64,000 bases of DNA from Escherichia coli (GTDB lineage: Bacteria > Pseudomonadota > Gammaproteobacteria > Enterobacterales > Enterobacteriaceae), in assembly GCF_003018255.1 (NCBI RefSeq), contig NZ_CP027440.1. The stretch is one strand, 5' to 3'. Shown here piece by piece: positions 33,801-36,800 of this stretch. The stretch's first letter is position 1, and every line of letters starts with the position of its first letter. Position numbers: made by a program.

Positions 33801-36800
33801 AGCCCTGCTCACGGGTCAGGTCATACGCCGCTTTGGTGATTGGCAGATAACCGGTTTTCTGATGCCACTCGGCAGCGTTTTCTGGCTTCGCGAGGAAGTC
33901 GAGGAACTTCGCCACGCCGGTATACGTTTCTTTATCTTTGCCCTGCATCACCCACAGGCTGGCCCCGCCGATAATGGCGTTTTGCGGTGCATCTTTCGCA
34001 TCGGCGTCGTAAGGCATCATGCCTACGCCGTAGTTAAATTTGGCGTACTCACGAATGTTGGCAAGCGAACCGGAAGAGGCGGTGGTCATCGCGCAATCAC
34101 CGTTATAGAACTTCTCAGTGGATTCATCCTTACGCCCGACGTAGCTGAAATCGCCCTTCTTGTTCATCTCTTCGAGCATAGCGATGTGTTTCACCTGCTC
34201 CGGCTTGTTGAACTCCAGCACCGCGTCTGTGCCGTCAAAGCCGTTGTTTTTGCTGGCAAACGGCAGACCGTTCCAGGCGCTAAAGTTTTCCAGTTGGATC
34301 CAGCCCTGCCAGCCGCTGGCGTAGCCGCACTTCATACCGGAGGCTTTCAGTTTCGCGGCATAGTCCGCCAGATCCTGCCAGGTTTTCGGCGGCTGTTCCG
34401 GGTCTAAACCGGCTTTCTTGAAGGCGTCTTTGTTGTAATAGAGAACAGGAGTCGAGCTATTGAACGGCTGGGAGAGTAAGTGGCCGGTTTTGCTGTCGGA
34501 GTAGTAGCCTGAAACCGTCGGCACAAACTGCGACTCATCGAACTGAATCCCCGCCTCTTTAAACACGTCATATACCGGTTTAATGGCTTTCGACGCCATC
34601 ATGGTGGCGGTGCCAACTTCATAAACCTGCAAAATAGCCGGCGCGTTGCCGGTACGAAATGCGGCAATCCCCGCGCTTAAATTCTGTTCGTAGTTGCCTT
34701 TATAGGTCGGTACAATTTTGTAATCCGGGTTTTCGGCGTTAAAACGTTGGGCCAGAGAATCCACCTCTTTACCCAGTTCCCCTTCCATAGAATGCCAGAA
34801 CGGAATGGTCGTCACTGCCTGTGCATTCCCCATTAACGCCAGTCCGAGCGCCAGTGCTGAAGCTGTATAATGTAACGGTTTCATCGTTTATCTCTCTTGT
34901 TGTACCGGATGCGCGAATTCACGCTTTTTATGCTCGCGGGGTAACATGACATGCTCGAATTACAGAAAAATAACTTTTTTGTTACATTTGTAAGATAGTA
35001 AGGTGTCAGAAAGATGACAAGGCGGTGACGGCGTGGGTGAGGGAAAATGGGAGATGGGGCACGGATAAAAAGCAGAATGGCTAAGAACCTTGTCAGGTAC
35101 CGCGTTGACGCAAGCGGGTAACGATATCTTCTAACGATACTTTTCCCGCCGCCACATCAACCGTCAATTCTACAAACTCTGGGTTTGCAGCAAGTATGAT
35201 GCCGTTACGTTTAAGGAATAATAGCGTGATAAACAGTGCGGTGCGCTTATTACCATCATTAAAGATATGACCGCGCGAGATTGCCAATAGATGCATCGCC
35301 GCCAGCAGCCAAAGATCAGAAACGCCTTCATACTCATACTTATTCAGTACCCGGTACAAAAGCGCTTCTGCTCGCCCTGGATCGGACATTCCTGTTACAC
35401 CTGGTGTAACGCTAAGCAATTTATCGTGGAAATAAATTATCTCCTCCGCTGAGATAAACTGAATGGTCATTTATCCGCTAACTCCTTAATTTCGCTGCCA
35501 TGAATAGCCATGATGGCGTCAAATTCTGCGTCCAGTTTAGCCTTCTGGTAACGTTCAAACTCTTCTGCGCTGATAATCACAGCTGCCTTATGACCACGCC
35601 TCGTGATCGTTACCGGAGTACCTGTCGCCGCTGTTTCCAGAACTAATGCAAGGTTCTGCCGCGCTTCGCTGTAGTTCATGGTATGCATGATATCCTCCAT
35701 ATTAAGTACAATTAAATTGTACAACTAACAAGTACAAAAAAGGAGTCATTCGACTCCTTTTTACTCAAAATATTATTACCCGCCTAAATACGCACTTCTC
35801 ACCGCTTCGTTCGCCAGCAGCGCATCGCCAGTATCGGAGAGCACCACATGACCGTTTTCCAGCACGTAGCCGCGATCAGCGAGCTTCAGCGCCTGGTTGG
35901 CGTTCTGCTCGACGAGGAAGATGGTCATCCCCTGCTCGCGCAGTTGCTCGATGGTGTCGAAAATTTGCTGGATGATAATCGGTGCCAGTCCGAGCGAGGG
36001 TTCATCAAGCAATAACAAACGTGGGTTACTCATCAAAGCGCGACCAATCGCCAGCATCTGCTGTTCACCGCCGGACATGGTGCCTGCCCGCTGAACACGG
36101 CGTTCATGCAGACGTGGAAACAGTTCATACACCCACTTTATGCGCTCCTGGAACTGGTCGCGTTCAGCAAAAAAGCCGCCCATCGCCAGATTCTCTTCCA
36201 CCGTCATGCGTGAGAAGACGCGACGTCCTTCCGGGACAATCGCCACCGCTTCGCGCATGATTTTCGCCGTCTGCCAGTCGGTAATGTCTTTATCATCAAA
36301 CACAATTCGCCCGCTGGTGGCGCGTGGGTCGCCGCATAACGTGCCGAGCAAGGTGGTTTTCCCCGCCCCGTTCGCGCCAATCAGCGTGACAATTTCGCCC
36401 TGATTGATATGCAGGCTCACCTCATGCAGCGCCTGGATTTTGCCGTAGTGGGCGCTAACTTTGTCAAAGGACAACATGACTTTTTCCATCTTATGCCTCA
36501 CCTAAATAGGCACGGATCACGTCCGGGTTATTACGGATCTGCTCCGGCGTACCGTTTGCCAGCGGCGTCCCCTGATTGACCACGTAAATTCTGTCTGAAA
36601 TCCCCATCACCAGCTTCATATCGTGTTCAATCAACAAGATAGTGGTGTTGTGATGGTTACGCAGTTCGGCAATCAGCTCATCCAGCTCTTTCGTCTCTTT
36701 CGGGTTAAGACCTGCTGCCGGTTCGTCGAGCATTAAAATCTCCGGCTGCGTTACCATGCAGCGGGCGATCTCCAGACGGCGCTGGTCACCGTAGGCCAGG

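What the first reader, a model, noticed from the sequence alone, without database searches (positions are those of the whole stretch)
35700..35745. Palindromic candidate operator upstream of phd
GTACAATTTAATTGTAC (8-bp arms) lies 18-34 nt upstream of the likely phd start, with a further GTACAA half-site downstream of it. Phd-family antitoxins repress their own promoters at palindromic sites, and toxin:antitoxin ratio tunes that repression. Its position also supports the internal Met at 35688 as the true start, not the ORF-track start at 35724.
Basis: seen in the sequence. Interest (0 to 1): 0.35.

Follow-up and report, generated by a model that had tools for sequence, protein, structure and literature searches.

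The report
Three-site Phd operator upstream of phd-doc
The palindrome is real and is almost certainly part of the DNA site where the Phd antitoxin shuts off its own toxin-antitoxin operon, but the working unit is three short GTAC-centred sites spaced 13 bp apart, an ordinary operator with one site more than the phage P1 model.

Summary
GTACAATTAAATTGTAC lies at 35706-35722, 18-34 nt upstream of the phd ATG at 35688, and a further GTACAA lies at 35732-35737.

A perfect 8-bp-arm palindrome is not rare by itself: about one per window is expected. The non-random feature is three GTAC cores exactly 13 bp apart (35706, 35719, 35732). None of 100 shuffles produced this.

The window is E. coli, with the gene order livF-phd-doc-ugpB. 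The same synteny occurs in 13 or more genera of Enterobacteriaceae. Of 19 non-redundant loci, 16 keep three GTAC cores at 13/13 bp, while the spacers between them vary. The perfect 17-mer is specific to E. coli.

Phage P1's characterised phd operator has two GTAC-core palindromes 13 bp apart, each bound by one Phd dimer and bridged by Doc.

The middle site, TTGTACAA, overlaps the only conserved -10-like hexamer, TACAAT. No -35 is recognisable.

The start at 35688 is supported. Binding and the transcription start remain untested.

Verdict: a new, uncharacterised member of a known operator type. Interest is modest.

The parts
35730..35737 (-). Operator site A (distal). It reads TTGTACTT on the minus strand, with the GTAC core at 35732-35735, and abuts the T-tract of the livF terminator.
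   Evidence: GTAC lies exactly 13 bp upstream of site B in 16 of 19 non-redundant homologous loci, whether or not a terminator abuts it. It is absent in L008 and L010.
35717..35724 (-). Operator site B (middle). It reads TTGTACAA, a perfect 8-bp palindrome with the GTAC core at 35719-35722. It is the likely high-affinity nucleation site.
   Evidence: GTAC is present in 19 of 19 loci, and the consensus TTGTACAAT(T/A)AA holds the most conserved columns of the intergenic region.
35704..35711 (-). Operator site C (proximal). It reads TTGTACTT, with the GTAC core at 35706-35709, and covers the predicted transcription start.
   Evidence: The TGTAC consensus lies 13 bp downstream of site B in the loci with intact phd. 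It is lost in L022 (truncated phd) and L024 (frameshifted phd).
35706..35722 (.). It consists of core C, the 9-nt spacer AATTTAATT and core B. The extended symmetry is specific to E. coli.
   Evidence: The same 20 nt are found upstream of phd-doc on IncF plasmid pSTEC648_1.
35716..35721 (-). Putative -10 hexamer TACAAT (5 of 6 matches), inside site B. The predicted start of transcription is near 35709.
   Evidence: Conserved in 17 of 19 loci. The T at hexamer position 6 is conserved while its mirror position on the other side of site B is variable. It is the only -10-like element in L010. No -35 is present: TCCTTT gives 1 of 6 matches, and the promoter scan found nothing. This part is inferred.
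35693..35698 (-). Shine-Dalgarno sequence GGAGGA, 4 nt before the ATG.
   Evidence: An equivalent purine-rich block precedes the ATG in all homologues.
35467..35688 (-). phd, the 73-aa Phd/YefM-family antitoxin. The true start is ATG 35688.
35093..35470 (-). doc, the 125-aa Fic/Doc toxin. Its start overlaps the phd stop by 4 nt (ATGA). The motif HIFNDGNKR is present.
35737..35762 (-). livF intrinsic terminator hairpin (AAAAAGGAGTC-GAAT-GACTCCTTTTT). Its T-tract runs into site A.
   Evidence: The hairpin is retained in K-12, where the operator, phd and doc are missing.

Best explanation
The element is the autoregulatory operator of a chromosomal phd-doc toxin-antitoxin operon. It is built from three GTAC-centred 8-bp sites at a fixed 13-bp centre-to-centre pitch: A at 35730-37, B at 35717-24 and C at 35704-11. 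By analogy with phage P1, each site binds one Phd dimer through its N-terminal domain. The perfect palindrome B (TTGTACAA) is probably occupied first. The imperfect flanking sites A and C (TTGTACTT) are probably filled cooperatively when Doc bridges the C-terminal tails of neighbouring dimers. Excess Doc should break the bridges and derepress, which is the conditional cooperativity described for P1. The array covers the putative -10 (TACAAT, inside B), the predicted transcription start (at C) and the spacer region (A), so occupancy should exclude RNA polymerase. What is shown: the sequence anatomy, the conservation of cores and pitch, the homology of Phd and Doc to the P1 proteins, and the match to the P1 operator's motif and pitch. 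What is inferred: Phd binding, the order of occupancy, Doc bridging across three sites, and the promoter and start-site assignment.
For: (1) Three GTAC cores lie 13/13 bp apart, found once in the window and 0 times in 100 shuffles. (2) The P1 operator read from the P1 genome is TATAAT-T-GTGTACAC-ATAAC-GAGTACAC. Its GTAC cores are 13 bp apart and lie just downstream of the annotated -10. The literature states that the operator is two 8-bp palindromes 13 bp apart, each bound by one Phd dimer, with GTAC cores, and that Doc promotes cooperativity (PMC1802561; PMC4803016; PMC10135005). (3) The livF-phd-doc-ugpB synteny holds in 19 loci from genera including Salmonella, Klebsiella, Kluyvera, Citrobacter, Enterobacter, Lelliottia, Leclercia, Siccibacter, Atlantibacter, Buttiauxella and Cedecea. 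Of 19 non-redundant loci, 16 have three GTAC cores at exactly 13/13 bp. The spacers between cores are nearly free to vary, and the distance from site B to the ATG varies from 32 to 36 nt. (4) Control: all 36 GTAC-N9-GTAC pairs in 62.6 kb of homologous loci lie upstream of phd. The only GTAC spacings seen there are 13 and 26 bp. (5) Natural knock-outs: L024 has a frameshifted phd, no doc, and has lost all three GTAC cores. L022 has a truncated phd, no doc, and has lost site C. L012 has doc replaced by a TacA/GNAT pair but an intact phd, and it keeps all three sites, so the sites track phd. (6) The operator is invariant among divergent E. coli carriers, while flanking and synonymous positions vary. 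(7) Phd is 45% identical to P1 Phd over 73 aa. The stretches A9-R10-x-N12-L13 and I28-T29-R30-R31-G32 are invariant between the window, Salmonella and P1 proteins. Conserved N-terminal arginines are needed for operator recognition in the homologue YefM (PMC3920265).
Against: There are no binding, footprint or transcription-start data for this or any orthologous locus in the searchable literature. No sigma-70 promoter passes a consensus scan, and the -35 position reads TCCTTT, so part of the expression could come from read-through of the livF terminator. Sites A and C are symmetric only in the central GTAC. Site A is missing in two loci with intact phd-doc (L008, L010), so it may be dispensable. 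Conservation of site B is confounded with its possible role as the -10. Every characterised or more distant relative examined has two sites: P1, pSTEC648_1 and Symbiopectobacterium.
Confidence: 0.75

Rival explanations
1. Only sites B and C form the operator, a two-site design as in P1. The distal GTAC (site A) would be non-functional, or conserved for another reason such as being part of the terminator/-35 region.
For: P1, plasmid pSTEC648_1 and Symbiopectobacterium have two sites. Two intact syntenic loci (L008, L010) lack site A. The right flank of site A is unconserved.
Against: GTAC lies exactly 13 bp upstream of site B in 16 of 19 loci. These include six where the terminator T-tract does not abut it (L004, L005, L006, L011, L020, L021), while the 9 nt between A and B vary freely. 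Site A decays together with B and C in the pseudogenised locus L024.
Confidence: 0.15
2. One reading: one 17-bp palindrome with 8-bp half-sites is the recognition unit for a single Phd dimer, with an extra half-site nearby.
For: Perfect symmetry in this E. coli sequence. The same palindrome, extended to 21 bp, occurs upstream of a plasmid phd-doc.
Against: The long symmetry is not conserved: the arms beyond GTACA differ in nearly all other genera. In Salmonella and Kluyvera the extended symmetry is centred on the middle GTAC instead. In P1 each 8-bp GTAC-core palindrome binds a whole dimer, and two sites are 13 bp apart. A palindrome of this class is expected about once per window.
Confidence: 0.05
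3. The palindrome acts at the RNA level, as a 5'-UTR or read-through hairpin affecting termination, stability or translation, or it binds an unrelated host regulator.
For: Folded as RNA, the 17-mer forms a 7-bp hairpin just downstream of the livF terminator.
Against: The stem is AU-rich and weak. If TACAAT is the -10, the transcript would start inside the palindrome. In other species the two GTAC-flanking segments are not complementary beyond GTACA, so no hairpin is conserved. No Rfam family matches there. The pattern of conserved cores with free spacers is that of protein-binding sites.
Confidence: 0.03

Closest known systems
Phage P1 phd-doc operator (Magnuson et al. 1996; Magnuson and Yarmolinsky 1998; Garcia-Pino et al. 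2010, 2016, as summarised in PMC1802561, PMC4803016 and PMC10135005)
   Same: It lies immediately upstream of phd. It has 8-bp palindromes with a GTAC core (TGTACA hexamer) at a 13-bp centre-to-centre pitch, one perfect site plus imperfect site(s). The cognate Phd and Doc are 45% and 48% identical to the window proteins.
   Different: P1 has two sites, both downstream of a consensus TATAAT -10. Here there are three sites, the middle one overlaps the only -10-like hexamer, and the flanking bases are TT/AA rather than GT/AC. The locus is a vertically inherited chromosomal module between livF and ugpB, not a plasmid-prophage addiction module.
E. coli yefM-yoeB operator (L and S palindromes; Kedzierska et al. 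2007, PMC1802561) and the homologous axe-txe operator
   Same: The antitoxin belongs to the same Phd/YefM family. Paired palindromes have a TGTACA core and overlap the -10. The longer, perfect site is bound first and the toxin enhances binding.
   Different: The pitch is 12 bp, not 13. There are two sites. The toxin is a RelE-type RNase, not Doc. The cooperativity mechanism differs.
Unstudied phd-doc operator on E. coli IncF plasmid pSTEC648_1 (CP061837.1)
   Same: It carries TTGTACAATTTAATTGTACAA, which is 20 nt identical to sites B and C of the window and lies at a similar distance from the ATG. Its Phd is 52% identical.
   Different: It has two perfect sites and no third site. It is plasmid-borne and has not been characterised experimentally.
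Enterococcus faecalis chromosomal Phd-Doc (NAR 2026, PMC13034048)
   Same: It is a chromosomal phd-doc module with a palindromic operator near the -10.
   Different: It has a single 10-bp palindrome, an AbrB/MazE-like N-terminal fold, and the Phd-Doc complex does not bind DNA. The window protein instead aligns end to end with P1 Phd.

Membership tests
Phd/YefM-type operator (P1 phd-doc paradigm) | Two or more short palindromes with a GTAC (TGTACA) core | tested here: met
   The three cores are at 35706, 35719 and 35732. Site B is the perfect 8-bp palindrome TTGTACAA. Sites A and C read TTGTACTT.
Phd/YefM-type operator (P1 phd-doc paradigm) | Fixed centre-to-centre pitch of 13 bp between adjacent sites | tested here: met
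   The pitch is 13/13 bp in the window. It is 13 bp in P1, read from NC_005856 and stated in PMC1802561. The only spacings found in 20 homologous loci are 13 and 26 bp.
Phd/YefM-type operator (P1 phd-doc paradigm) | Located just upstream of the antitoxin gene and overlapping its promoter | tested here: inconclusive
   The position 16-49 nt upstream of the ATG is met. The overlap with a promoter rests on a conserved TACAAT within site B, with no recognisable -35. No transcription-start data were found.
Phd/YefM-type operator (P1 phd-doc paradigm) | Bound by Phd dimers; Doc acts as corepressor at low ratios and derepressor at high ratios | not testable with these tools
   This needs EMSA or footprinting and reporter assays.
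Phd/YefM-type operator (P1 phd-doc paradigm) | Cognate repressor has the Phd/YefM N-terminal DNA-binding domain | tested here: met
   Pfam PF02604 matches at E 1.8e-16. PDB P1 Phd 3hry matches at E 1.5e-12 over residues 1-72. R10 and R30/R31 are invariant between the window, Salmonella and P1 proteins.
phd-doc type II toxin-antitoxin module | Antitoxin gene first, toxin gene second, overlapping or coupled; toxin of the Fic/Doc family with the HxFx(D/N)(A/G)NKR motif | tested here: met
   phd (35467-35688) and doc (35093-35470) share a 4-nt ATGA overlap. Pfam Fic PF02661 matches at E 5e-10. HIFNDGNKR is read in the translation. Doc is 48% identical to P1 Doc.
phd-doc type II toxin-antitoxin module | Doc is toxic and Phd neutralises it | not testable with these tools
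   This needs expression experiments.
Sigma-70 promoter | -35 and -10 hexamers with a 16-18 nt spacer | tested here: inconclusive
   The -10 TACAAT matches 5 of 6 and is conserved. The -35 matches 0-1 of 6 in the window, but reads TTGnnn, TTCAAA or TTGAAT in five loci (L005, L006, L011, L020, L023). The consensus scan found none.
Intrinsic terminator / RNA hairpin (as an alternative identity of the palindrome) | G+C-rich stem followed by a T-tract, with the stem conserved by covariation | tested here: not met
   The 17-mer stem is AU-rich and is not followed by a T-tract. Complementarity beyond GTACA is not conserved. The real livF terminator is the adjacent hairpin at 35737-35762.

The most novel reading that the evidence does not exclude
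The conserved third site makes this a distinct regulatory design. A central high-affinity Phd dimer on site B would recruit dimers on both flanks through two Doc bridges, forming a Phd2-Doc-Phd2-Doc-Phd2 chain. This would give a different toxin:antitoxin set-point and a steeper switch than the two-site P1 operator. In addition, sites B and C are identical over 20 nt to the operator of an IncF plasmid phd-doc. The chromosomal Phd could therefore cross-repress, or be cross-repressed by, plasmid-borne modules, acting as an anti-addiction or interference link.
Probability: 0.25. Interest if true: 0.5.

Novelty: new member of a known kind. Interest (0 to 1): 0.3.

Why it matters
The finding fixes the annotation of this locus: the phd start is 35688, and the operator spans about 35704-35737. 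It also corrects how the palindrome should be read. The evolutionary constraint is on the GTAC cores and the 13-bp pitch, not on the long symmetry.

The finding shows that a chromosomal phd-doc module has sat between livF and ugpB across much of the Enterobacteriaceae with its operator intact. That argues for maintained autoregulation rather than a decaying relic.

The three-site array is a natural variant on which the P1-derived model of conditional cooperativity could be tested directly. In that model Doc bridges neighbouring Phd dimers.

The gain is incremental. Autoregulation of type II toxin-antitoxin operons at palindromic operators is textbook knowledge.

Tried and rejected
- **Promoter and terminator scan:** it found no sigma-70 promoter, only the livF terminator, so the promoter assignment rests on conservation.
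- **Experimental transcription start sites in Salmonella:** searches of the supplements of three Salmonella transcriptome papers found nothing for STM3559, livF or ugpB.
- **Primary P1 operator papers:** PMC107722 and PMC1064050 are not held. P1 facts were taken from the P1 genome record and from secondary descriptions.
- **Literature on the chromosomal enterobacterial operator:** searches found nothing.
- **Exact scan of viral contigs for TTGTACAATTTAATTGTAC:** one hit in a giant-virus metagenome-assembled contig, treated as chance.
- **Pantoea plasmid Phd homologue (41% identity):** it has no GTAC sites and no doc, so it was uninformative.
- **Alternative -10 and -35 combinations:** these used TTGTAC as the -35, TAATAT as the -10, or a P1-like -10 in the A-B spacer. 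They were considered and rejected because the spacings are wrong, the Shine-Dalgarno sequence would be excluded from the mRNA, or the hexamers are not conserved.
- **ArcA-like or other host regulator sites in the spacers:** rejected because the spacers are not conserved.
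Full report
**What is there.** All the genes in this part of the window are on the minus strand: ugpB (33568-34884), doc (35093-35470), phd (35467-35688) and livF (35776-36501). Read in the direction of phd, the livF-phd intergenic region is:

...AAAAAGGAGTCGAATGACTCCTTTTTTGTACTTGTTAGTTGTACAATTTAATTGTACTTAATATGGAGGATATCATG

It lies 18-34 nt upstream of the ATG at 35688. The additional GTACAA is at 35732-35737, which is distal to the palindrome with respect to phd.

**Is it more than chance?** The exact 17-mer is expected 0.01 times per window, but that is not the right null. Perfect inverted repeats with arms of at least 8 nt and a spacer of 0-4 nt occur 14 times in this window, against 6.4 in shuffles. 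With a 1-nt spacer there are 2, against 1.1. A palindrome of this class is therefore unremarkable.

The remarkable feature is a different one. Three GTAC tetranucleotides start at 35706, 35719 and 35732, exactly 13 and 13 bp apart. This pattern occurs once in the window and in 0 of 100 shuffles. GTAC is also under-represented in the window (166 found against about 250 expected).

**Where the window comes from, and the module's context.**
- The window is E. coli. The livF-phd-doc-ugpB arrangement is present in only 106 of 5426 complete E. coli genomes, always on the chromosome.
- RefSeq annotates phd with the start that corresponds to 35688, giving 73 aa.
- In K-12 the hairpin after livF is retained. 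From there to just upstream of the ugpB promoter region, the operator, phd and doc are absent and REP-like repeats take their place.
- Phd matches Pfam PF02604 (E 1.8e-16) and Doc matches the Fic/Doc family PF02661 (E 5e-10).
- Phd aligns end to end with P1 Phd, whose structure is solved (3hry, E 1.5e-12, 45% identity).
- Doc is 48% identical to P1 Doc and carries HIFNDGNKR.

**The known paradigm.**
- In the P1 genome the annotated Pphd -10 (TATAAT) is followed by T-GTGTACAC-ATAAC-GAGTACAC. The two GTAC cores are 13 bp apart.
- The literature describes this operator as two 8-bp palindromes 13 bp apart centre to centre. Each is bound by one Phd dimer, the cores are GTAC, and Doc promotes cooperative binding (PMC1802561).
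- Later work showed that one Doc bridges two DNA-bound Phd dimers through a high-affinity and a low-affinity site, and that excess Doc breaks the repressing complex. This is conditional cooperativity (PMC4803016; PMC3920265; PMC10135005; PMC13034048).
- The related YefM operator has TGTACA-core palindromes 12 bp apart that overlap the -10.
- The window's motif and pitch therefore match P1 exactly, but with three sites rather than two.

**Comparative test.** One scan of species-representative genomes gave 23 loci. By tblastn, 19 of them have livF upstream and, where the flank reaches, ugpB downstream. The genera are Salmonella, Klebsiella, Kluyvera, Citrobacter, Enterobacter, Lelliottia, Leclercia, Siccibacter, Franconibacter, Phytobacter, Atlantibacter, Buttiauxella and Cedecea. 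Phd is 74-88% identical, and LivF is 91-99% identical. This is an old, vertically inherited chromosomal module.

Among 19 non-redundant upstream regions:
- Sixteen have three GTAC cores at exactly 13/13 bp.
- The middle site has the consensus TTGTACAAT(T/A)AA.
- The 9-nt spacers carry little or no information.
- The distance from the array to the ATG drifts between 32 and 36 nt.

Other genera have sequences such as GTACAATTAACCTGTAC or GTACAATAAACATGTAC. In Salmonella and Kluyvera the extended symmetry (34 bp, with one mismatched pair) is centred on the middle GTAC instead. What selection holds constant is therefore the cores and their pitch.

As a control, the 62.6 kb of homologous loci contain 36 GTAC-N9-GTAC pairs. 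All lie within 70 nt upstream of phd and none lie elsewhere. The only GTAC-GTAC spacings there are 13 and 26 bp.

Within E. coli, divergent carriers differ at flanking and synonymous positions but not inside the array.

**Natural knock-outs.**
- L024 (Atlantibacter subterranea) has a frameshifted phd and no doc. All three cores are mutated, to TTAC, GTAA and GTAT.
- L022 has a truncated phd and no doc, and has lost site C.
- L012 has an intact phd and all three sites, although doc has been replaced by an oppositely oriented TacA-like/GNAT pair.

The sites therefore follow phd, as expected for Phd-binding sites.

**How many sites?** Two intact syntenic loci (L008 Franconibacter, L010 Phytobacter) lack the distal site A. 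The more distant relatives all have two sites: P1-type, Symbiopectobacterium, and the IncF plasmid pSTEC648_1. Site A is thus dispensable in some backgrounds, and a two-site reading remains a rival (about 0.15). Against that rival, site A is kept at exactly -13 bp in 16 of 19 loci. These include six loci where the terminator T-tract does not abut it, while its neighbouring bases vary.

**Promoter.**
- A consensus scan finds no sigma-70 promoter here.
- The only conserved -10-like hexamer is TACAAT (35721-35716), inside site B.
- Its last T is conserved, whereas the mirror-image position on the other side of B is variable. That asymmetry is expected if a -10 is superimposed on a palindrome.
- In L010, where everything upstream of B differs, TACAAT is the only -10-like element.
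- The -35 position reads TCCTTT in the window. It reads TTGTTT/TTGTGT, TTCAAA or TTGAAT in loci where other sequence occupies that place.
- I infer, with moderate confidence, a weak promoter dominated by its -10, with a start near 35709. B would then cover the -10, C the start site and A the spacer.
- Read-through from livF cannot be excluded.
- No experimental start site was found.

**Start codon.** All homologues have an ATG at the position of 35688, preceded by a Shine-Dalgarno-like block. The N-termini align with P1 Phd from residue 1. Codon 4, which is ATG here, is Val or Ile in other species. The upstream extension from the TTG at 35724 is not conserved, and in-frame stops close it at -6 or -27 in several species.

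**Rivals.**
- *Single 17-bp palindrome bound by one dimer.* This is contradicted by the conservation pattern and by the P1 precedent.
- *RNA hairpin.* The stem is weak and AU-rich, would be cut by the predicted start site, and is not conserved. No Rfam family matches.
- *Chance.* This is excluded.

**Verdict.** The element is a Phd operator of the known GTAC-core, 13-bp-pitch type. It belongs to an uncharacterised but widely conserved chromosomal phd-doc module and has three sites instead of P1's two. Binding, stoichiometry, the role of Doc and the promoter remain to be shown experimentally. Interest is modest (0.3), and the element is a new member of a known kind.

Noticed in passing
L027 (E. 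coli K-12 MG1655) 4327-4724, compared with window 35075-35775: K-12-type genomes keep the hairpin after livF (GGAGTC-AAAA-GACTCC), but the operator, phd and doc are absent and REP-like repeats fill the gap. At the same distance from the hairpin as site B, K-12 reads AAATGTAAAATT where the window reads AGTTGTACAATT (9 of 12 matches). This may be a relic of site B with GTAC changed to GTAA.
   Followed up: partly
L012 (Atlantibacter sp. RC6) 1501-2643: phd and all three GTAC sites are intact. doc, however, is replaced by an oppositely oriented TacA-like antitoxin (PF08681, E 3e-19) and GNAT acetyltransferase pair. This leaves an orphan phd next to a different toxin-antitoxin module.
   Followed up: partly
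L024 (Atlantibacter subterranea) and L022 (Buttiauxella MAG), about 1440-1720: These are decaying copies of the module. In L024 phd is frameshifted, doc is gone, and each of the three GTAC cores carries a point change. In L022 phd is truncated at residue 56, doc is deleted and site C is lost.
   Followed up: partly
L028 (E. coli IncF plasmid pSTEC648_1, CP061837.1) 563-583: A plasmid phd-doc (Phd 52% identical) is preceded by the perfect 21-bp palindrome TTGTACAATTTAATTGTACAA. It shares 20 identical nt with sites B-C of the window. Shared ancestry, conversion or convergence were not resolved, and cross-regulation is conceivable.
   Followed up: partly
window 35394-35410: A second perfect 17-nt palindrome with 8-nt arms, GTTACACCTGGTGTAAC, lies inside the doc coding sequence. 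Its conservation was not examined.
   Followed up: no
window 35700-35698 (minus strand): An in-frame ATG lies 12 nt upstream of the phd start and overlaps the Shine-Dalgarno sequence (ATGGAGGATATCATG). It is shared only with L013, so it is unlikely to be used.
   Followed up: yes
Homologous loci L003, L005, L006, L010, L011, L013, L014, L017-L019 and L023, at position +4 of phd: Many homologues have a fourth GTAC in codons 2-3 (ATG CGT ACN, Met-Arg-Thr). It lies 23-26 bp from site C (26 bp only in L011), so not consistently on the 13-bp register, and is absent in the window (ATG CAT ACC). It is probably a coding coincidence.
   Followed up: partly
window 7427-7443: This is the only other GTAC-N9-GTAC in the window (GTACTCTTTGATCGTAC). 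It is compatible with chance, since 0.29 are expected per window.
   Followed up: no
window 24177-24241 (minus strand): A RyhB small RNA gene (Rfam RF00057, 83 bits) is the only Rfam match in the window.
   Followed up: no
window 35737-35762, and the homologous loci: In most genera the T-tract of the livF terminator runs directly into the distal operator site (CTCCTTTTTTGTAC). Terminator and operator therefore share bases, and the place where a -35 would be lies in the terminator's 3' arm and T-tract.
   Followed up: partly
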